Part shown: piece by piece, positions 33,847 to 45,649 of the stretch
Numbering within the stretch: the stretch's first letter is position 1
Layout of the letters: every line of letters starts with the position of its first letter
Assembly (NCBI GenBank): GCA_965215015.1
Contig: OZ244042.1
Coordinates: 10,768-74,767, forward strand
DNA from: Candidatus Poribacteria bacterium
GTDB lineage: Bacteria; Poribacteria; WGA-4E; PCPOR2b
Direction: 5' to 3'
Length of the DNA: 64,000 bases
Program-made: the position numbers and the translations under genes
Notes under the pieces: generated by a model
Database searches by the model: none
Seen by the model: only the letters and a program-made list of their open reading frames with translations
What the model was told of the DNA's origin: nothing

Positions 33847-33966
33847 CGTTCCCCTTCCCCCTGCTTGCGGGGGGATTGAGGGGGGTCCCTTCCCTCCCCC
33901 TGCTTGCGGGAGGACTGAGGGGGGTGCCTTCCCTCCCCCTGCTCGCGGGGGGACTGAGGGGGGTGT
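33847..33966 (+). repeat. Three tandem copies of a ~39-bp G/C-rich hairpin repeat
   Basis: ccttccctccccctgcttgcggggggactgaggggggtg x3, with the first and third copies slightly variant. Confidence 0.85.
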
Positions 33967-37318: not shown

Positions 37319-38173
37319 ATGGACCTTACACGACAGCCACCACGGCGTCCATCAAACCTGAGCCTCGCCGGCATTGTCGGCGCAGCACGAATGACCGACA
37401 AAGCCAGAGCGCATAACAACGGAACGACCGGCGATTACCTCTACGGAGAGGATTCCGGTCTAGACCAGAAAGTTCTCGAACTACTGGGAATTGCAGCCGA
37501 TGACTTTGCCAAAGCTGCTGATGAACACGATGATGAAACCTTGCAGGCGTGGGTGTTCAAAAACTCGAGCGTTACGGAGACAGAGATTGATGCGTTTAAT
37601 CAGCGGGAATTGAGCCTTGAGCCGCCGAACGAGGAGTATAAGCAACGCTTGAGAGATCGGCTTGCCAAGTACGCCCCCGGTAGGACAGATATCACAACAG
37701 TACTTCAATCGGTAGAACTAGATGATTGGGGTGGTTTCTGGCAGGTTGACTTGACGGTCGGCCCCCCGCGTAGTCCCCATTCTAAGGAGGTCGTAGGCTG
37801 CCATGGTGTCGCACGGATGGCAGATAAAGCGCGCGCAGCACGCGCCGGAAAAATCGGAGAATATCGGTATGGCGAGGATTCCGGACAGGATAGACGTATC
37901 TTGGAGTTTCTCGGTATCTCTGAGGAAGATTTCCAAGATGCCGCGGTCAACAACCCCAACGACATTGAGATTGGTACATGGGTGCTTGAAAACAGCGGTA
38001 AAGGGGCAGATGAAATCGCAGCCTTCAATGAACGTATGGCAAATTGGGGGCCTGAGGATGAGTCGTCAAGAGCCTATTTTGAAAAGCGGCGTCAAGAGGT
38101 AGATCCAAGCCGTACAGACATTAAGACTTGGGCAGACCTTCAAGACATTGACGACAAACTCAGTTTCGAGTAG
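37319..38173 (+). CDS. Hypothetical protein with tandem internal duplication of a ~110-aa domain
   Basis: GIVGAARMTDKARAHNNGTTGDYLYGEDSGLDQKVLELLGIAADDF is repeated as GCHGVARMADKARAARAGKIGEYRYGEDSGQDRRILEFLGISEEDF, each followed by ...WV..NS....EIDAFN.R. Confidence 0.65.
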   Translation: MDLTRQPPRRPSNLSLAGIVGAARMTDKARAHNNGTTGDYLYGEDSGLDQKVLELLGIAADDFAKAADEHDDETLQAWVFKNSSVTETEIDAFNQRELSLEPPNEEYKQRLRDRLAKYAPGRTDITTVLQSVELDDWGGFWQVDLTVGPPRSPHSKEVVGCHGVARMADKARAARAGKIGEYRYGEDSGQDRRILEFLGISEEDFQDAAVNNPNDIEIGTWVLENSGKGADEIAAFNERMANWGPEDESSRAYFEKRRQEVDPSRTDIKTWADLQDIDDKLSFE

Positions 38174-39248
38174 GCCGAAAATTGAGTATATCGAGGACGG
38201 TTGCGGTTTTATCATCGACAAGCACGACCCCCAGATTGCCCCAACCGTGATTGTGGTAACTGACAAACCAAGCAAACCCTTGAAATAAGGCGTATCCGTG
38301 CACACCTGTGTGCGCTGTTAGGTGTGTACGGACACGTTCATCCCTATTAGCAATCCTCAACGCTTGTGTGGATGTTAATTGTGGAGCAGGACTGATAGAT
38401 GGACGGGATAAGTCCCTCAACATAGATTCTGCTTCGGTGGGCAAGGTTTTTGTCGGTTTGCCCTCAGCGAGTTCGCGTAACAGGGCTGCCCATTGACGAT
38501 ATGCGTTTCGGACTTTTTCATACTGCGTGACACAGTTCGCCTCTACCTTTGAGAGGTCATTTGCCGCACGACGGGAAATTACCTCTCGGCCCACGCCCTC
38601 TGCTGCGCCACCGACCGCATCGCGATTCAGAGCACTCCACCGGAAATAGGCGACTGTTATCTCGTTATATTGGTCAGCACACATCTCCGCAGCATCGGCT
38701 TCGAGATAAAGAACAGCGGCAAAATTCCCCCTCCTTTTGAAAATTTCCTGTTCCACTCTAAAAAAACTAGGGTAGATACCGTAATGATAAAATCGATTCG
38801 GATAGATCTGTGCCCACGTTGAAATAAACTGCGTAATTTTCTCGTGTTCCACCTCCAGTTCGGGCGAAGTCCCCTCTATTTCTGACCTTTTCCACTTTGC
38901 CTTCGCAGCCTTTAGATGGTATTCTCGCCGTTTCTTTATATTCGCTAATTCTCTACGACTCCGCTCCACCCGTACATCTTTTCCATGACGGAGATAGTAG
39001 CGAATTTGGATTTCCGTCATCGGAATAGAGATGATTTTCAGACAGTCCGCAGCTGCTTCGTGCCACAGGGCTGCCTTGGCAAAGTTTCCCTCCCGTTCAT
39101 ACCGCTGGATCATAGCCGTAGCGTTGGCGGTGCCTTCACGAACTGCATGGCACAGTTGAACATAGCAAATCAACGCCCAAAGAACGATGAGGGAGTAGAT
39201 TATCTTCATCTTGATAGATTCAATATTTTGGGCAGGCACAAGCCCCAT
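38160..39248 (-). CDS. Hypothetical secreted protein
   Basis: 362 aa; signal peptide MKIIYSLIVLWALICYVQLCHA after an internal Met; no recognisable motif. Confidence 0.6.
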   Translation of the reverse strand: MGLVPAQNIESIKMKIIYSLIVLWALICYVQLCHAVREGTANATAMIQRYEREGNFAKAALWHEAAADCLKIISIPMTEIQIRYYLRHGKDVRVERSRRELANIKKRREYHLKAAKAKWKRSEIEGTSPELEVEHEKITQFISTWAQIYPNRFYHYGIYPSFFRVEQEIFKRRGNFAAVLYLEADAAEMCADQYNEITVAYFRWSALNRDAVGGAAEGVGREVISRRAANDLSKVEANCVTQYEKVRNAYRQWAALLRELAEGKPTKTLPTEAESMLRDLSRPSISPAPQLTSTQALRIANRDERVRTHLTAHTGVHGYALFQGFAWFVSYHNHGWGNLGVVLVDDKTATVLDILNFRPTRN

Positions 39249-39483
39249 CCCTACATTTGGTTAATTGCTATAGGGGCAACCCTTGTAGTTATCCTGCCGT
39301 AGGTCAATTTTCCAAAATCGACAATGCCTAGACTCTAGCGCGAAAGTTCGGCTAATTGAGCCAAGATTGTAGTGGGGCAGGCCGGGTATTTTGTCGAGAT
39401 ATGAACCTCGACCGACCTGCTGTGCTAGTATTTTCCACGATTTGCGTTATATCACACCCATGTGTGATTGAAATGTCGAACTG

Positions 39484-40401
39484 TCATTTTCCGTATTTGA
39501 ACCGTGCAATCGCGCCCTGCTCTACTAATTCTGCGCGGGCGTAATGCGCGGGCATCTGAGGCGATTTCCATCGCCCGGCAACCTGCATATTCACAACAGA
39601 CGCCCCGGCTTGGGCAAGCGAGACAGCAGAACCGATACGAAGGGAGTGTCCAGAAATCTTGCCTTCCACACCCGCCGCGCGTGCCCTACGCTTGATAACC
39701 TTCCTTACACCATCAATCGTTAGCCTGCCCCCAGTTATGTTATCACCCCGACGAATCCACCGAAAGAGTGGACCATCAGTGATATCCCCCGATTCACAAT
39801 ACCGCTTTATCGCCTCCCGCGTGGGATCCCCAATATACAGCGTCACACCGAGGACGCCCGCCGTACCCGGGTGGGTCTTTGACTGATAAACCCTCAACGC
39901 ACTATCAACATCCTCTACATCTACCGCGACCGCTTCACTAATGCGTAACAGACAGTCACTCATCAGTCGAATCAGGGCCGAATCTCTCAGTCCAGCAACG
40001 GTTTCCTCCGCTTCGGCAAGCGCACAGATTCTCTCTACTTCATCCCACGTTATGCCATCCATCTGTCCTCGGCCTCTGCCTTTGCCTTTACGTCGAATGC
40101 CGGCGAGTGCCTTTTCCGTAATCTCAAAGGAGAGCTCCTTTGCCCCCACGCTGTGATTCTTCACCATCCATTTGACTGCAGCAACGATTTTACTGATGGT
40201 CGATGGCGACCTTCCGTTTTGATACAACTCTGTGATATAGTTTGCGAGTAGGTTATCGCTCAGGGAATGTCCATCCAACCAAATTTCCAACTGTTGCATC
40301 GCGAGACGATACGTCTCGACGGTGCTCGGTGCAACGCTCGCTTTGACTAATTCCTCCGTTTCGTCGCTGATAACGACCTGCTTCCAAGCTGATGCATTCA
40401 T
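39484..40401 (-). CDS. Tyrosine site-specific recombinase/integrase (XerC/D-like size)
   Basis: C-terminal catalytic signature ...GHSLRIGSAVSLAQAG...VAGRWKSPQMPAHYAR (R..H.LR...GRW.S...Y). Confidence 0.85.
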   Translation of the reverse strand: MNASAWKQVVISDETEELVKASVAPSTVETYRLAMQQLEIWLDGHSLSDNLLANYITELYQNGRSPSTISKIVAAVKWMVKNHSVGAKELSFEITEKALAGIRRKGKGRGRGQMDGITWDEVERICALAEAEETVAGLRDSALIRLMSDCLLRISEAVAVDVEDVDSALRVYQSKTHPGTAGVLGVTLYIGDPTREAIKRYCESGDITDGPLFRWIRRGDNITGGRLTIDGVRKVIKRRARAAGVEGKISGHSLRIGSAVSLAQAGASVVNMQVAGRWKSPQMPAHYARAELVEQGAIARFKYGK

Positions 40402-40448
40402 GATTATCCCTCCATGACTAAGTTCCTAATCTCTCTGATAGTTCTATA

Positions 40449-40735
40449 GAATCCTGATTCTGACAAGTTACACCTCAGCCTCCAAAATCATCGCCGCATT
40501 CTGTCTGAATCGGGATTTACTGGATTTTAGGATTCACAGGATTGACTCTATCCATTGCCATTGGCTATCCTGAAAATCATTCCATCTTGAGAATCCTGAT
40601 TCTGACAAGTTACACCTCAACCTCCAAAATCATCGCGACATTTGTCTGAATCGGGATTTACTGGATTTTAGGATTCACAGGATTGACTCTATCCATTGCC
40701 ATTGGCTATCCTGAAAATCCTTCCATCTTGAGAAT
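40449..40735 (+). repeat. Two tandem copies of a 142-bp unit with four GGATT iterons each, upstream of the integrase gene
   Basis: Units 40449-40590 and 40591-40732 are about 95% identical. Each contains cGGGATTtactGGATTttaGGATTcacaGGATTgact plus an inverted AATCC. The array is bracketed by the 8-bp direct repeat TTCTATAG (40442-40449 and 40741-40748). Confidence 0.85.
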
Positions 40736-41000
40736 AGCATTTCTATAGCGTCTTATCTGTTTCTGAAGCGAATCCTCTAACGGAATGCCAACGCATTCCC
40801 TAAAACTCATGCTTTGGAGATAACGATAAGAACCGCTTTTTGGTTGATCCACTATATTTATTGTGTATAAGTAGTTACTAGCTTTTAACAAAACACAAGC
40901 GAGCAAAGACATTGTTCAAATTTTAGGAAAACGCCAGATCATATAGGGAGAAGGTTATCACACCTTTATGTGGTTTAGGGCACGCGACTCGTGCCGGCTC

Positions 41001-41121
41001 CTTTATGAGCCCCCCTCAGTTAGTTTTCGGTCATGGGATCTGCTTATGCCAGTTGTCCAGGCCGTCTTTTATCCGTGTCCTCCGTCAATCGGTGCTTATC
41101 CGTGATTCAGACAATAATATA
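41001..41121. repeat. Two degenerate right-end remnants of the MITE-like element
   Basis: ctttatgagcccccctcagttagtt (41001-41025) and cttatccgtgattcagacaataatat (41096-41121). Confidence 0.4.
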
Positions 41122-41377
41122 GGAGAATTAAAGGACCCTATTTTTACCGCTTTTTCGCTTGATTGGTGTTATTAATCTTGATATAATATCCACAACCGAA
41201 CACTTTAGAATACATAGCAGCCAATATAAGAAGGCTGCTGTTAAGAAATTGTGCAACAGACCGTGAGCTTTCAAGAAAAAACTCGGGCTCTCTTCGCGCC
41301 ATGTACTCTCTTTAAGCCTTACGCAGCTGATACCAAGCAAAGGCCTCAGAAAAACTATCTATAAGGAGACACTCCCT

Positions 41378-44300
41378 ATGTTTAAGCATCATTTCATTTC
41401 CGATTCGATGGGAATTTGCAAACAACGGCAGCACCTCATCACACTTATTAGTCTATTGATGTGCATCGTAGGTTATCAAAATGTATACCCCCAACAACAG
41501 ATTGCCCAAGATGCCTACGCTATTTTTCAACAGAGCTGCCTCATCTGCCATGGACCCGACGGTGCCTATCGAGAGACACTCCTAATGGAACACAACTCAC
41601 TCATCGAAAACGGGACAGTGGTCCCCGGAAACCCCAATGCCTCCGAACTGTATAACCGGCTCCTGACGACTGAGATAGCCAAACGGATGCCCCTTGGACA
41701 ACCCCGGCTATCCACTCAAGCGATTGCCACCATCCGAAACTGGATATTCGCTGGCGCACCCGATTGGGCGGCAACCCCCGCAGCCGATAGACGCTTTATC
41801 TCTCCCGGTGAAATACTCAATACCATCGAGACTCACGTCATGTCGCTGGCACCGTTTGACCGTGCCTTTGCCCGGTACTTCACAATGACACACCTCTATA
41901 ACGCAGGTGAGACCACGCGAGCTCTTGACAGCTATCGTAACGGCCTCTCGAAACTGGTCAATAGCCTCTCATGGGGGAGTACCGTCACCAACCCCCAACC
42001 CATTGACCGACAAGGCACCATCCTCTACATTGACCTGCGACACTACGAGTGGGATCGCAATGATGGGTGGGGGCAGATAGAAGCGGCATATCCCTATCAC
42101 ATCGGGTTTGATGCACCGACACAGACCGCGCTACGGGCCCAACTGACCCGGTTACAGACGGCGATGAAGTCTGATATACCATCGGTTCATGTCGACTGGT
42201 TTATAGCACAAGCCTCTTTACCTCCACTCTACCATGATTTACTCTCTCTCCCCTTAACGGATAAAGAGTTAGAGACCCGATTAGAAGTCGATGTTGTCCG
42301 TAACCTGCAAAATGCACCGGGGGTGCGTGTCTGGCGGGCCGGCACCAACAATTCAGGTGTCTCCAATCACAACCGAGTGATAGAACGCCACACCTCTCGC
42401 TATGGTGCCTATTGGAAAAGTTACGACTTTGGGGGGAGTGTGGGTACACAGAACATCTTCACCCATCCCCTGTCATTCACCCATGATGGTGGTGAGGTTA
42501 TCTTCAACCTACCCAACGGGTTACAGGGATACTACCTTGCCAATGGGGCCGGTTTTCGCCTAAATGAGGCACCGATAAACATTGTTTCTAATCCCGCAGC
42601 GAGTGATCCGACGGTGCGGAATGGTTTATCCTGTTTCGGTTGCCACACAGAGGGTATGAAGCCATTTGAGGACCAAGTCCGTTCGGTGATAGCGAATAAT
42701 ACCGCTCCCACTTATGACAAAGCGCAGGCGTTGCGGCTCTACGTGGCAAAATCAGAGATGAACGCGCTTGTGGGTGAAGATATGAATAGGTACAGGGTTG
42801 CCCTTGAAGCGACGGGCGGGGCGTTTGATGACATTGAACCCATCTCCCGTTTCCACGAGGCATTTCAGGAGGAGGTAGACACAGCACACGCCGCAGCCGC
42901 GGTTGGGTTAGAGCCGGAGGCGTTCTTGGAAAAGATACGTGAGAATATAGGGCTACAGGATATCGGCTTGCTGGTGTTAGACAGTGAGGCTGGAAGTATG
43001 AAACGGGACACCTGGACATCGAGTTTTCGGGATATAGTTTTTGCGTTGGATTTCCCGGAGCGTTTCACCCCTCCCACGGCGATAACCCCGCCGGTAGTGA
43101 CACCGGGTACGGTTGTGTATATCCCGGACCCAAACCTGCGTGCGGCAATAGCGGAGGCACTGGACAAGAGCCCCAATGCTCCGATTACTGCCGAGGAGAT
43201 GGCAAAGTTGAGCAGGCTCGATGTGCCGCGCAGGGGCATCCGTGATTTGACAGGGCTGCAGTATGCAACCAATCTGACACGGTTAAATATTAACGACAAT
43301 CAGGTCTCCGACATCTCACCGCTAGCGGGCTTGATCGAACTGCGCGAGCTCCGGATTCACGACAACGACAACCTCTTGTCCGATATATCGCCTGTGAGAG
43401 GCTTAACCAATCTCACTTATCTTCAGTTTGACCGCTCTACAGTCTCTGATATATCTCCCGTGAGAGGCTTAACCAATCTTACTTACCTTGAGTTTGACAA
43501 CACTTTGGTATCCGATATATCTCCCGTGAGAGGCTTAACAAATCTCATTACCCTTAAGTTTGGTCACACTTCGGTATCCGATATATCTCCGGTGAGGAAC
43601 TTAACAAATCTCACTCGCCTTGAGTTTGAGCACACTTTGGTATCTAACCTATTGCCAATTGCGAGATTAATCAATCTGGAGCGGTTACATTTGGGAAGTG
43701 ATAATATCTCCGACCTGTCGCCGGTTTCAGGATTAATCAACCTCAAACACATTAGTGGTGGTTGGGGCAGCTCTATATCCGATTTATCGCCCTTGGCAGG
43801 CTTAACAAAACTGGAGCAGATACATATGCACGGCGGAAAGATATCAGATCTCACGCCTTTAGCAGGCCTAACCGGCTTGAAGGAACTGCATTTTCGGGAC
43901 AACGACATATCGAATCTCGCCCCCCTCGCAGGGTTAACACAGCTAACTCGTCTGCAGCTCGCGAACAACAATATATCGGATCTCTCCCCCCTTGCAGGGT
44001 TAACCAACTTGAAATGGCTAGTGATCCATGACAACGAGATTTCTGACATTTCTCCGCTGCAGGGACTCCGCGAGAATATAACGACGTTCGTTTGGCATGA
44101 CAACCCGGGATTCCCAAAAGTGGGACCGTCAATCGAGGGGCCGTGGTTATGGGTTGTATTACCGGAAACAAGACCGAGTAGCAGTAAGGATTTACTGTCA
44201 GAAGTGAGCGGGGGGGCGGTAACAGAGACGGAGATTGCTACCCATGGGGCAACCGTGGGAAGTTCTGTAGGTGATGATGTATGGACCTACCGCACACTCC

Positions 44301-45649
44301 CGCCTACGGGCTGGGCTAATGTTCGCCAAATGCTTGACGGCCACATCGATGGTGCCAGCCTCTACGGCACGGTGTCCTTGCATTCACCACGACAACAGGA
44401 CACAACACTATACGTTGGCAGTCATAACGATTTTAAGGTCTGGCTCAACGGGACTTTGATTTACGAGTCTCTCCGTTACCATGCGAGTTTCGGTTACACG
44501 GATTCTCTGCCGGTCACGCTGAAGCAGGGAAGAAATGTGCTATTGGTAGCCGTTAGAGCCCAGTATAATGCCTTTTTTGGGTTTGAACCCGGCACCGAAT
44601 ATACTGTGGCGAACCCCGGTGTCGGATACACTTTTTCCAAGACACCCATTCATATAGGCGATACCTTTACCCTTAATCTTCGCGCCGAAACGGTCTCCGA
44701 CTTGGCAGGCTGGCAGTTCGATATTGCCTTTGACCCGGCTGCCCTCGAAGCCATTGACGTCAGCGAAGGCAATTTCCTGAAGGCAGATGGGGGCTCCACC
44801 TTCTTTCAGGGTAGGAGCATCGATAACGCGACAGGTAAAATCTCAGGACTCAGTGCGGCGCGATTGGCTGCCCAAGGTGTAAATGGCACCGGCACCCTGC
44901 TGCAGGTCAGGTTCAGGGCGAAATCTGCCGGTGAAACAGAGTTGGTGCTGCAAAACTTTCAGTTTGGCTCCATCACCGGCGATACTATCCCTGCAGGACC
45001 GCGTCAAATTCGCATCGCTGTCGAGGGACGCCTGGCGACCGGGGACGTGAATCGAGATGGTGTGGTCAGCATTTTGGATCTCATTCTCGTCGCACAGCAG
45101 TTGGGGAAAAAGGTGGCCCCCAACTCACCGGTAGATGTCAACCGAGATGGTGTTGTCAGCATCCTTGACCTTATCGGCATCGCGCAGGGGATCGGGAACA
45201 CCACAGCACCTGCCGCCCCGGCACCCTCCTCACTGGAGGTAAATCCTGAGACCATAGCGGCATGGATTGCACAGGCACAGGTGGCAGATGACGGTTCCCT
45301 TGCCTTCAAACAGGGTATCGCAAATCTCCAAAACCTGTTAGCCGCGTTGATTCCTGAAGAGACTGCGTTGTTGGCAAACTATCCGAATCCGTTTAACCCG
45401 GAGACGTGGATACCGTATCAGTTGGCAACCCCTGCGGAAGTTACATTGACCATCTATGATAGGAACGGGGAGGTCGTTCGCCGGTTAGCCGTGGGACATC
45501 GAGGCGCGGGTATGTATCAGAGTCAAAACCGTGCGCTATATTGGGACGGACGGAATCAGCTGGGTGAACCTGTCGCCAGTGGCCTCTATTTTTACACACT
45601 GACAGCAGGCACATTCACGGGGACGCGGCGGATGTTGATACTCAAATAA
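41378..45649 (+). CDS. Giant secreted multidomain protein: dihaem cytochrome c region + leucine-rich repeats + cohesin-like + dockerin-like + T9SS C-terminal sorting domain
   Basis: CxxCH haem motifs at about nt 41536 (SCLICHG) and about nt 42633 (CFGCHTEG). About 15 22-aa LRRs (LTNLTYLxFDxTxVSDISPVRG). Cohesin-like WQFDIAFDPAALEAIDV. Two dockerin repeats DVNRDGVVSILDL. C-terminal NYPNPFNPETWIPYQL...WDGRNQLGEPVASGLYFYTL...RMLILK. Confidence 0.85.
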   Translation: MFKHHFISDSMGICKQRQHLITLISLLMCIVGYQNVYPQQQIAQDAYAIFQQSCLICHGPDGAYRETLLMEHNSLIENGTVVPGNPNASELYNRLLTTEIAKRMPLGQPRLSTQAIATIRNWIFAGAPDWAATPAADRRFISPGEILNTIETHVMSLAPFDRAFARYFTMTHLYNAGETTRALDSYRNGLSKLVNSLSWGSTVTNPQPIDRQGTILYIDLRHYEWDRNDGWGQIEAAYPYHIGFDAPTQTALRAQLTRLQTAMKSDIPSVHVDWFIAQASLPPLYHDLLSLPLTDKELETRLEVDVVRNLQNAPGVRVWRAGTNNSGVSNHNRVIERHTSRYGAYWKSYDFGGSVGTQNIFTHPLSFTHDGGEVIFNLPNGLQGYYLANGAGFRLNEAPINIVSNPAASDPTVRNGLSCFGCHTEGMKPFEDQVRSVIANNTAPTYDKAQALRLYVAKSEMNALVGEDMNRYRVALEATGGAFDDIEPISRFHEAFQEEVDTAHAAAAVGLEPEAFLEKIRENIGLQDIGLLVLDSEAGSMKRDTWTSSFRDIVFALDFPERFTPPTAITPPVVTPGTVVYIPDPNLRAAIAEALDKSPNAPITAEEMAKLSRLDVPRRGIRDLTGLQYATNLTRLNINDNQVSDISPLAGLIELRELRIHDNDNLLSDISPVRGLTNLTYLQFDRSTVSDISPVRGLTNLTYLEFDNTLVSDISPVRGLTNLITLKFGHTSVSDISPVRNLTNLTRLEFEHTLVSNLLPIARLINLERLHLGSDNISDLSPVSGLINLKHISGGWGSSISDLSPLAGLTKLEQIHMHGGKISDLTPLAGLTGLKELHFRDNDISNLAPLAGLTQLTRLQLANNNISDLSPLAGLTNLKWLVIHDNEISDISPLQGLRENITTFVWHDNPGFPKVGPSIEGPWLWVVLPETRPSSSKDLLSEVSGGAVTETEIATHGATVGSSVGDDVWTYRTLPPTGWANVRQMLDGHIDGASLYGTVSLHSPRQQDTTLYVGSHNDFKVWLNGTLIYESLRYHASFGYTDSLPVTLKQGRNVLLVAVRAQYNAFFGFEPGTEYTVANPGVGYTFSKTPIHIGDTFTLNLRAETVSDLAGWQFDIAFDPAALEAIDVSEGNFLKADGGSTFFQGRSIDNATGKISGLSAARLAAQGVNGTGTLLQVRFRAKSAGETELVLQNFQFGSITGDTIPAGPRQIRIAVEGRLATGDVNRDGVVSILDLILVAQQLGKKVAPNSPVDVNRDGVVSILDLIGIAQGIGNTTAPAAPAPSSLEVNPETIAAWIAQAQVADDGSLAFKQGIANLQNLLAALIPEETALLANYPNPFNPETWIPYQLATPAEVTLTIYDRNGEVVRRLAVGHRGAGMYQSQNRALYWDGRNQLGEPVASGLYFYTLTAGTFTGTRRMLILK
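43300..44060 (+). repeat. Intragenic ~66-bp tandem DNA repeats encoding the LRR units of the giant protein
   Basis: Consecutive units such as gatatatctcccgtgagaggcttaaccaatctcacttatcttcagtttgacc are repeated with high nucleotide identity. Confidence 0.8.

What the first reader, a model, noticed from the sequence alone, without database searches (positions are those of the whole stretch)
39484..40750. Tyrosine recombinase abutting a 2 x 142-bp tandem array rich in GGATT iterons, bracketed by TTCTATAG
Each 142-bp unit carries four direct GGATT pentamers at 8-9-bp spacing plus an inverted AATCC; the two units are about 95% identical. The array starts 48 bp upstream of the integrase start codon and is flanked by an 8-bp direct repeat (40442-40449 and 40741-40748). 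This looks like arm-type or iteron binding sites of an att region, a replicon origin or a recombinational switch, not an ordinary promoter. An integron was considered and rejected: the integrase is XerC/D-sized and there are no attC-like sites.
Basis: seen in the sequence. Interest (0 to 1): 0.6.

Follow-up and report, generated by a model that had tools for sequence, protein, structure and literature searches.

The report
Remodelled invertible promoter switch in Poribacteria
The tandem array sits where related sponge-symbiont (Poribacteria) genomes carry a roughly 305-bp flippable promoter segment next to the same recombinase gene. It is therefore best read as a remodelled, probably disabled copy of a known kind of genetic on/off switch, which in the relatives faces genes for leucine-rich-repeat surface proteins.

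Summary
The array spans 40448-40735 with two units of 142 and 141 bp that are 96.5% identical. Each unit has four GGATT pentamers, TTCTATAG lies at both ends, and the array starts 48 bp from an intact Cre-like tyrosine recombinase gene.

Comparison with about 28 related Candidatus Poribacteria loci changes the interpretation. In relatives this slot holds a conserved 303-312-bp segment bounded by inverted repeats (TAGAA plus 6 variable bases). The variable bases differ between loci but nearly always match within a locus. The segment carries an A-tract and TTGACA placed 17-18 bp from a TAGAAT that lies inside the repeat. One relative (L025) has the segment inverted exactly at the repeat. The gene on the far side is always divergent from the recombinase gene and usually encodes an LRR/Big_12/T9SS surface protein. 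This is a fimS-like invertible promoter family.

In the window that segment is replaced by an unrelated 141-bp unit that has been duplicated. TTCTATAG forms the outer arms of the two recombination sites. Their central bases no longer match (TCAGGA versus TAGCAT). No canonical promoter remains for the recombinase, and the LRR gene has its own promoter.

"Recombinational switch" is the right class. An att region, arm-type sites and a replication origin are not supported. The role of the GGATT iterons is unknown.

The parts
39484..40401 (-). Cre-like tyrosine recombinase gene, 305 aa
   Evidence: ORF. PF00589 match, E 2e-16. Best solved-structure matches are Cre, E 5e-7, aligned through the catalytic region. 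R153, K175, H252, R255, W278 and Y287 are invariant in 24 family members. dN/dS against relatives is 0.13-0.22.
40408..40413 (-). Ribosome-binding site GGAGGG of the recombinase gene, in a 5' region conserved with relatives
   Evidence: The alignment of upstream regions shows GGAGG and the flanking bases conserved in all loci.
40442..40464 (-). Near site C. Read towards the recombinase it is GTCAGAA-TCAGGA-TTCTATAG.
   Evidence: It aligns with the near inverted repeat and -10 region of relatives (ATGTAGAA-TAGCAT-TTCTGTAT), but its central 6 bases differ.
40450..40591 (.). Tandem unit 1 (142 bp)
   Evidence: No detectable similarity to the core segment of relatives: Smith-Waterman scores are at the shuffle level and nhmmer --max gives E>7.
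40592..40732 (.). Tandem unit 2 (141 bp)
   Evidence: It differs from unit 1 by 4 substitutions and 1 indel.
40513..40543 (+). Four GGATT pentamers of unit 1, spaced 9, 8 and 9 bp. The same block recurs at 40654-40684 in unit 2.
   Evidence: Function unknown.
40586..40606 (-). Junction site B. Read towards the recombinase it is GTCAGAA-TCAGGA-TTCTCAAG. It shares its left arm and centre with site C and its right arm with site A, and it lies in direct orientation to C, 142 bp away.
   Evidence: Read from the sequence; see also families D1 and D2.
40727..40748 (+). Far site A: CTTGAGAA-TAGCAT-TTCTATAG.
   Evidence: Homology with L003, L026 and L028 runs from the far flank through ...AAATGCTATTCT and stops there. 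TAGCAT is the central hexamer found in L003, L004, L024, L026 and L030.
40749..40880 (+). Conserved leader of about 130 nt between the far site and the far-side gene. It contains the hairpin GGAATGC-CAAC-GCATTCC.
   Evidence: BLAST matches to the same offset in most relatives; alignments. The window copy folds with z = -3.1, but covariation across 16 loci is weak.
41159..41187 (+). Promoter-like site TTGATT-17-TATAAT with an upstream TG, lying ahead of the LRR gene and outside the switch
   Evidence: 10 of 12 matches. This is a consensus match only.
41378..45649 (+). Far-side gene, divergent from the recombinase gene: a 1423-aa protein with an internalin-like LRR region and a T9SS sorting domain
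   Evidence: (internalin models; Por_Secre_tail scores 24.5 bits against a cut-off of 23).
38160..39248 (-). 362-aa protein gene with an N-terminal hydrophobic stretch read by eye as a signal peptide (not tested), downstream of and co-oriented with the recombinase gene. It is a conserved partner in the main orthologous locus.
39450..39469 (-). Hairpin just after the recombinase stop codon (TATCACACCCATGTGTGATT on the + strand)
   Evidence: family D10. Conserved in L003, L004, L006, L023 and L024.

Best explanation
**What the family is.** The window holds a derived member of a recombinase-plus-invertible-promoter module that is conserved in Candidatus Poribacteria. In the standard module a segment of about 305 bp lies between two inverted repeats (TAGAA plus a 6-base centre). 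The segment carries an A-rich tract and a TTGACA -35 element at one end. The -10 element (TAGAAT) lies inside the repeat itself.

**How it would work (inferred).** Inversion by the adjacent Cre-like tyrosine recombinase would move the strong upstream promoter half. It would go from the recombinase side, which often also carries a 362-aa putatively secreted protein gene, to the opposite side. There a conserved leader runs into a divergent gene, usually an LRR/Big_12/T9SS surface protein. This would be fimS-like phase variation.

**What happened in the window.** Everything between the far-site centre and the near-site outer arm has been replaced by an unrelated sequence of about 141 bp. That sequence was then duplicated in tandem at ATTCT microhomologies, which are the conserved arm motif. 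The result is three sites, A, B and C. The central bases of A and C no longer match, the canonical promoter is gone, and the LRR gene has a promoter of its own.

**Consequence.** The most likely reading is a switch that can no longer invert. Its recombinase gene is still intact and may act on paralogous switches elsewhere in the genome. The identical direct sites B and C could still allow units to be lost or gained.

**Shown:** the anatomy, the homology breakpoints, the co-variation of the repeats, one inverted allele, and the identity and orientation of the neighbouring genes.

**Inferred:** promoter activity, actual inversion by this enzyme, the disabled state of the window copy, and how the duplication arose.
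For: - **Homology breakpoints:** Relatives match the window upstream region on both sides of the array at the same offsets, but not across it. Pairwise alignments place the breakpoints at ...GCTATTCT| and |TTCTATAGAAC.
- **Inverted repeats:** In 18 of 18 standard loci in the first set, an exact inverted copy of the near 10-mer lies 350-366 bp upstream of the ATG. Seven different centres were seen, each matched within its locus. Segment length is 303-312 bp in 19 loci. An eighth centre, TAGTAG, is matched in the P0065 loci. Over the 11-bp terminal repeat, 209 of 209 cells pair and 5 columns change on both sides. The 10 outer positions pair by construction, because the boundaries were chosen from the exact matches.
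- **Natural inversion:** In L025 the core matches other loci plus/minus while the recombinase-proximal flank matches plus/plus. The two matches overlap at GTAGAATAGTAT.
- **Promoter:** TTGACA-17/18-TAGAAT (11 of 12 matches) reads across the near repeat in L003, L014 and L019. Only 9-of-12 candidates use the far TAGAAT. No equivalent site exists on the recombinase strand in the window.
- **Far-side genes:** All are divergent from the recombinase gene. LRR, Big_12 and/or T9SS-tail domains were scored in L006, L010, L014, L016, L017 and L019. L009 and L015 have a DHOR peroxidase and L002 a YtkA-like protein. Further far-side genes were seen. In L012, L019 and L029 the RBS and ATG follow about 75-80 nt after the far repeat.
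- **Recombinase:** Catalytic residues are intact and align with Cre. dN/dS is 0.13-0.22.
- **Unit origin:** The unit is not detectably related to the standard core.
Against: - Only 1 of about 28 assembled loci has the inverted orientation. Its far junction also lacks 16 bp, including the repeat. Ongoing switching is therefore inferred and has not been seen in reads.
- All promoter calls are consensus matches.
- The window recombinase ORF is intact and the family is under purifying selection, so the locus is not simply dead.
- The two units differ by 3.5%, so the array has persisted for some time. That is compatible with the array having a function.
- The GGATT block is identical in both units and remains unexplained.
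- L029 and L027 show that matching of the repeats is not absolute.
Confidence: 0.6

Rival explanations
1. The array is a working variant of the switch. The 141-bp units with their GGATT iterons would bind a regulator or nucleoid protein. Recombination between the identical direct sites B and C, or unequal sister-chromatid exchange, would change the unit copy number. That would tune expression of the recombinase operon or the LRR gene by copy number rather than by inversion.
For: Sites B and C are identical over 24 bp and lie in direct orientation 142 bp apart. The recombinase is intact. The array length of 289 bp is close to the 303-312 bp of standard segments. The iteron block is identical in both units. 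In Bacteroides fragilis, the number of repeats between the Tsr19-controlled promoter and its operon modulates expression (PMC4747536).
Against: No second example was found among about 28 loci. No promoter-like site in the array faces the recombinase gene. No DNA-binding protein gene is linked. There are no read data. The identical 77-bp stretch is not statistically remarkable for 5 differences in 142 bp (my estimate, p about 0.1).
Confidence: 0.15
2. The units are small cassettes delivered by site-specific recombination into a single ancestral palindromic site, CTATAGAA-ATGCTA-TTCTATAG. This would be an att-like insertion, so the locus would be an insertion hotspot rather than a decayed inverton.
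For: Removing the array at the ATTCT repeats leaves a perfect site with 8-bp arms and a 6-bp centre. Sites A and C are exactly the hybrids expected from a crossover at one spacer edge with a B-type site. In L025 and L027 a shared 320-bp sequence sits on opposite sides of the core, which suggests repeated rearrangement at these sites.
Against: A simple tandem duplication produces the same hybrid junction. The centres of A and of B/C share no homology, and tyrosine recombinases normally require it. A 141-bp circle is an unlikely substrate. The closest relatives (L003, L026, L028, L030) all have the standard inverted-site arrangement at this position. No free or second copy of the unit is known.
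Confidence: 0.1
3. The array is an incidental replication-slippage duplication of intergenic DNA with no relation to the recombinase, which would be an ordinary Xer-like or phage-type integrase.
For: Tandem duplications at 5-bp microhomologies are common. TTCTATAG alone is not significant.
Against: The duplication end points coincide with the conserved arm motif of two sites that are homologous to the inverted repeats of about 28 related modules. The XerC, XerD and XerA models score 56-72 bits against cut-offs of 220-335. There is no tRNA gene or island.
Confidence: 0.1
4. The array is an iteron-type replication origin or plasmid partition site.
For: Short direct repeats (GGATT x4) occur at sub-helical spacing.
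Against: No replication initiator or partition gene is adjacent. The locus lies on a multi-megabase chromosome and is syntenic between species. GC skew shows no origin-like switch confined to this spot.
Confidence: 0.01

Closest known systems
E. coli fimS switch with the FimB/FimE tyrosine recombinases
   Same: Both have a short invertible segment: 314 bp in fimS (PMC9993118) and 303-312 bp in the Poribacteria relatives. In both, short inverted repeats bound the segment, a promoter inside reads out across one repeat into a surface-structure gene, and the recombinase gene is adjacent. Expression of the recombinase depending on switch orientation is plausible here. From my own knowledge, fimE is subject to orientational control.
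   Different: The recombinase here is a 305-aa two-domain Cre-like protein rather than a FimB-sized (about 200-aa) protein, and no specific sequence relationship to FimB/E was tested. Here the -10 element lies inside the repeat and only the -35/A-tract half would move. The window copy lacks the invertible promoter segment and has mismatched site centres.
Bacteroides fragilis invertible promoters controlled by the tyrosine recombinase Tsr19 (IVp-I/IVp-II)
   Same: A tyrosine recombinase gene lies next to an invertible promoter that controls surface or outer-membrane products. More than two repeat copies can be present, and their number affects expression (PMC4747536). One recombinase can act on a local and a distant switch, which would explain an intact recombinase beside a disabled switch.
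   Different: The phylum, repeat sequences and target genes all differ (LRR/T9SS proteins here). No sequence relationship was tested. In the window the extra site arises from a tandem duplication of foreign sequence.
Cre/loxP of phage P1
   Same: Cre is the best solved-structure match, and the catalytic residues R, K, H, R, W and Y align. The site logic is similar: two arms around a short asymmetric centre that sets orientation and must match between partner sites.
   Different: The match is weak (E 5e-7) and scattered. The candidate sites have roughly 8-bp arms and a 6-bp centre rather than 13-8-13. The setting is chromosomal and regulatory, not plasmid dimer resolution. Only relatives below 36% identity occur in the phage and plasmid collections.
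Clostridioides difficile RecV switches (cwpV, flagellar)
   Same: From my own knowledge, a tyrosine recombinase inverts short segments upstream of surface-protein genes and acts at several loci.
   Different: cwpV is controlled through a terminator formed in the leader rather than by promoter orientation. No sequence comparison was made here.

Membership tests
Invertible promoter switch (inverton) with a tyrosine recombinase | A short segment bounded by inverted repeats, next to a site-specific recombinase gene | tested here: inconclusive
   In relatives the feature is met: exact inverted 10-mers lie 303-312 bp apart. In the window only AGAAT and TTCTATAG match between the two sites, and the 5 central bases differ (TCAGGA versus TAGCAT).
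Invertible promoter switch (inverton) with a tyrosine recombinase | Both orientations of the segment exist in nature | tested here: inconclusive
   One of about 28 related loci (L025) is inverted exactly at the near repeat, but its far repeat is deleted. For the window itself this cannot be tested, because no reads were available.
Invertible promoter switch (inverton) with a tyrosine recombinase | A promoter inside the segment reads out across a repeat | tested here: not met
   In the window no sigma-70-like site lies on the recombinase strand, and none in the array uses either site. Relatives do meet the feature: TTGACA-17/18-TAGAAT, 11 of 12 matches.
Invertible promoter switch (inverton) with a tyrosine recombinase | The recombinase has an intact catalytic set | tested here: met
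   R153, K175, H252, R255, W278 and Y287 align with the Cre catalytic residues and are invariant in 24 homologues.
Integron (IntI, attI, attC cassettes) | An IntI-type integrase and attC sites | tested here: not met
   NF040815 (XerA/integron integrase) scores 71.7 bits against a cut-off of 220. No IntI structure appears among the PDB matches. There is no cassette array with attC-like imperfect palindromes.
XerC/XerD-dif chromosome dimer resolution | Equivalog-level match to XerC or XerD | tested here: not met
   TIGR02225 scores 67.1 against 329.6 and TIGR02224 scores 56.3 against 335.15. Several genomes carry two or more copies of this recombinase in different contexts.
Integrase of a phage, ICE or genomic island with attL/attR | Integration next to a tRNA gene or flanking direct att repeats that bound foreign cargo | tested here: not met
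   There are no tRNA or tmRNA genes in 64 kb. Neighbouring genes are conserved in synteny across species. No phage-like relatives above 36% identity were found.
Iteron-controlled replication origin | Iterons beside a replication initiator gene on a replicon | tested here: not met
   No initiator gene is adjacent, and the contigs are chromosomal and multi-megabase.
Described RNA families (Rfam) | A covariance-model match at the gathering score | tested here: not met
   No match in the window or in 12 related loci. In 40380-41400 only chance-level miRNA matches appear.

The most novel reading that the evidence does not exclude
**Family level.** Poribacteria would use a split-promoter inverton. 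The -10 element is fixed in the inverted repeat, and the -35/UP half sits on the flippable segment. The switch would toggle between the recombinase operon and eukaryote-like LRR/T9SS surface proteins. That would be the first phase-variation system described for sponge symbionts.

**Window level.** The recombinase sites would have been re-used to build a direct-repeat array. Its 141-bp, iteron-bearing units would be gained and lost by site-specific recombination at B/C-type sites, making a copy-number switch or a natural cassette exchange rather than a dead inverton.
Probability: 0.12. Interest if true: 0.7.

Novelty: new member of a known kind. Interest (0 to 1): 0.45.

Why it matters
Leucine-rich-repeat and other eukaryote-like proteins are the main candidates for how sponge symbionts deal with their host. 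How these uncultivated bacteria regulate them is largely unknown.

A conserved recombinase-driven switch directly upstream of such genes would mean their display is phase-variable. That can be tested directly with existing long-read metagenomes. I found no paper that links Poribacteria or sponge symbionts to phase variation or invertons.

The window copy shows how such a switch can be remodelled or disabled. It also gives a natural example in which the centres of the two sites have diverged.

Tried and rejected
- **Rfam:** gathering-threshold searches of the window and 12 relatives, and an E-value search of 40380-41400, found nothing real.
- **tRNA scan:** no genes found.
- **Unit versus standard core:** the 141-bp unit is not a diverged copy of the standard core. 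Smith-Waterman scores are at the shuffle level and an nhmmer profile gives E>7. Only the 13-mer GTAAATCCCGATT is shared.
- **Unit elsewhere:** the viral contig scan found none. The metagenome scan with the protein gave only L022 (50% identity), whose upstream region I read without seeing the repeat/promoter layout. The viral scan with the family alignment gave only a 27%-identity relative.
- **Structured RNA in the core or leader:** apart from the terminal inverted repeat, RNAalifold support is weak. The unit folds no better than shuffles.
- **Second recombinase copy or fragment in the window:** none found.
- **AlphaFold model of the recombinase:** pLDDT 39, unusable, so no fold search was run.
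- **Orientation polymorphism among four contigs encoding the identical protein P0065:** all four are in the standard orientation.
- **Integron, Xer/dif, prophage/att and replication origin:** all rejected; see the membership tests.
Full report
**Observation**

- Tandem Repeats Finder reports a single array at 40448-40735 with period 141, 2.0 copies and 96% matches.
- Aligned directly, the units are 142 and 141 nt and differ by four substitutions and one indel.
- Each unit has four GGATT pentamers spaced 9, 8 and 9 bp and begins with an inverted AATCC.
- GGATTN4GGATT occurs five times in the window, four of them in the array, against 0.21 expected.
- TTCTATAG lies at 40442 and 40741. As a bare 8-mer it is not remarkable: 3 matches against 1.0 expected, reached by 9 of 100 shuffles.
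- The array starts 47-49 bp upstream of the ATG of a 305-aa ORF at 39484-40401 on the minus strand.

**The recombinase**
- It matches PF00589. Its best solved-structure relatives are Cre proteins (E 5e-7), with the alignment running through the catalytic region.
- R153, K175, H252, R255, W278 and Y287 are invariant in 24 homologues.
- The XerC, XerD and XerA/integron-integrase models score far below their cut-offs.
- Only relatives below 36% identity occur in the phage and plasmid collections.
- An AlphaFold model was unusable (pLDDT 39).

**Where the window comes from and what relatives look like**

Homologues at 75-89% identity are abundant, and the genome loci recovered are all Candidatus Poribacteria. 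Several genomes carry two copies in different contexts.

I collected about 28 loci. None has the tandem array. Instead, BLAST shows that the window matches its relatives on both sides of the array at the same offsets, but not across it.

In relatives the slot is filled by a conserved segment. Its ends are inverted repeats. In 18 of 18 standard loci in the first set, the 10-mer AGAA+N6 near the recombinase gene has an exact inverted copy 350-366 bp upstream of the ATG. This gives a segment of 303-312 bp in 19 loci.

The six variable bases take eight forms across loci: TAACAT, TAGCAT, TAGTAT, TACTAT, TAGTGT, TAACAC, TGGTAT and TAGTAG. Within a locus they match, with two exceptions. L029 has one mismatch. 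L027 has two mismatches, and its recombinase gene is separated from the switch by an 850-bp insertion.

Over the 11-bp terminal repeat, 209 of 209 cells pair and five columns change on both sides. The 10 outer positions pair by construction, because I chose the boundaries from the exact matches. The independent result is that such a match exists at the expected place in every standard locus. Matching of this kind between two sites 300 bp apart is what recurrent recombination between them would maintain.

**Evidence that the segment inverts**

L025 is syntenic with the window: recombinase gene, 361-aa gene and DUF5069 gene, with an LRR gene on the far side. In L025 the core lies in the opposite orientation. 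Positions 380-672 of its upstream region match L014, L002, L006, L024 and L001 plus/minus. Positions 661-732 match plus/plus. The overlap is GTAGAATAGTAT, which is the repeat.

The L025 far junction equals the junction expected after inversion, minus 16 bp that include the repeat (my reading). This allele therefore looks locked.

All other loci have the standard orientation. That includes four contigs encoding the identical protein P0065.

**What the segment carries**

At its recombinase-proximal end there is an A-rich tract and CTTGACA, placed 17-18 bp from TAGAAT. That TAGAAT lies inside the repeat. The promoter scan scores this site 11 of 12 in L003, L014 and L019. At the other end only 9-of-12 candidates use the far TAGAAT.

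Because the -10 element sits in both repeats, inversion would move the strong -35/A-tract half to the far side. This is an inference.

On the far side a leader of about 130 nt is conserved in most loci. In L012, L019 and L029 the ribosome-binding site and ATG of the far gene follow only about 75-80 nt after the repeat. That leaves little room for an independent promoter.

In every locus where a far-side gene was identified it is divergent from the recombinase gene.
- **LRR, Big_12 and/or T9SS-tail proteins:** the window, L006, L010, L014, L016, L017, L019, L025, L028 and L032-L035.
- **Di-haem peroxidase:** L009, L015 and L026.
- **YtkA-like protein:** L002.
- **Transposase:** L003.

The family is therefore best described as a fimS-like invertible promoter. 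fimS is 314 bp and is inverted by the FimB tyrosine integrase (PMC9993118). Here the switch is associated mainly with eukaryote-like surface proteins.

**What is different in the window**

Homology with L003, L026 and L028 runs from the leader through ...AAATGCTATTCT and stops there. It resumes at TTCTATAGAACTATCAG on the recombinase side.

The 289 bp in between is two copies of a unit with no detectable similarity to the standard core. The only shared element is a 13-mer.

Read towards the recombinase gene, the three junctions are:
- **Site A:** GCTATAGAA-ATGCTA-TTCTCAAG
- **Site B:** GTCAGAA-TCAGGA-TTCTCAAG
- **Site C:** GTCAGAA-TCAGGA-TTCTATAG

The centres of A and C (TAGCAT as reverse complement, against TCAGGA) do not match. 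In the relatives the centres nearly always match.

No sigma-70-like site faces the recombinase gene. The LRR gene, 630 bp away, has its own TTGATT-17-TATAAT.

The duplication end points fall at ATTCT, the conserved arm motif. Either slippage at this microhomology or unequal exchange at the sites could have produced site B.

The recombinase ORF is intact, and its dN/dS against relatives is 0.13-0.22. This fits a recombinase that still acts on paralogous switches, as Tsr19 does on local and distant promoters in Bacteroides fragilis (PMC4747536).

**Alternatives**
- **A functional copy-number array or a cassette insertion:** neither can be excluded, because I had no reads and could not search genomes for the unit.
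- **An att region of a mobile element:** this fits poorly. There is no tRNA gene, synteny is conserved, and no island is present.
- **An integron or Xer/dif:** the family models fail.
- **A replication origin:** there is no initiator gene and the setting is chromosomal.
- **Described RNA families:** no match was found in the window or in 12 relatives.

**Verdict**

The locus is a new member, in an uncultivated sponge-symbiont phylum, of a known kind of system. The window copy is a remodelled and probably non-inverting derivative.

I found no paper linking Poribacteria or sponge symbionts to invertons or phase variation.

Noticed in passing
window 33856-33965: A 39-bp tandem repeat (2.8 copies, 92% matches), TCCCCCTGCTTGCGGGGGGACTGAGGGGGGTGCCTTCCC, lies in an intergenic region. 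Each unit contains a G/C-rich palindrome.
   Followed up: no
window 40749-40885 (+), and the equivalent position in most related loci: A conserved leader of about 130 nt lies between the far repeat and the far-side gene. The window copy folds into a long helix enclosing the hairpin GGAATGC-CAAC-GCATTCC (z = -3.1). Covariation over 16 loci is weak.
   Followed up: partly
L025 1662-1978 and L027 1861-2179: A shared sequence of about 320 bp lies on the far side of the switch core in L025 but between the core and the recombinase gene in L027. This suggests repeated rearrangement or insertion at the recombination sites.
   Followed up: partly
L033 and L035 versus L032 and L034 (leader region, about 330-450 bp upstream of the recombinase ATG): Contigs encoding the identical recombinase differ by an insertion of about 115 bp in the leader. 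It is flanked by GGATTCGCT direct repeats and looks like a small mobile insertion.
   Followed up: no
L018, L020, L021: These are decayed copies of the recombinase gene. One is interrupted (194 aa matched over 1148 nt), and two retain only the last 50 or so codons.
   Followed up: no
window 38160-39248 (-) and 37319-38173 (+): A 362-aa protein with no Pfam family and an N-terminal hydrophobic stretch that looks like a signal peptide (by eye, not tested), and a protein with two DUF5069 matches, follow the recombinase gene here. The same pair follows it in L001, L024, L025, L028 and L030, and the 362-aa gene also follows it in L012, L014 and L019. The 362-aa gene is co-oriented with the recombinase gene and may be co-transcribed with it.
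   Followed up: partly
window 39450-39469: The hairpin TATCACACCCATGTGTGATT lies directly after the recombinase stop codon. It is conserved in L003, L004, L006, L023 and L024. A 16-of-20 similar sequence occurs at 40956-40975.
   Followed up: no
L029 near and far repeats; L027 1300-1320 and 1600-1620: These are exceptions to the perfect matching of the repeats. L029 has TAGTAT against TAGCAT. L027 has TAGAATGGAGT against TGGAATAGAGT, together with an 850-bp insertion between the switch and the recombinase gene.
   Followed up: partly
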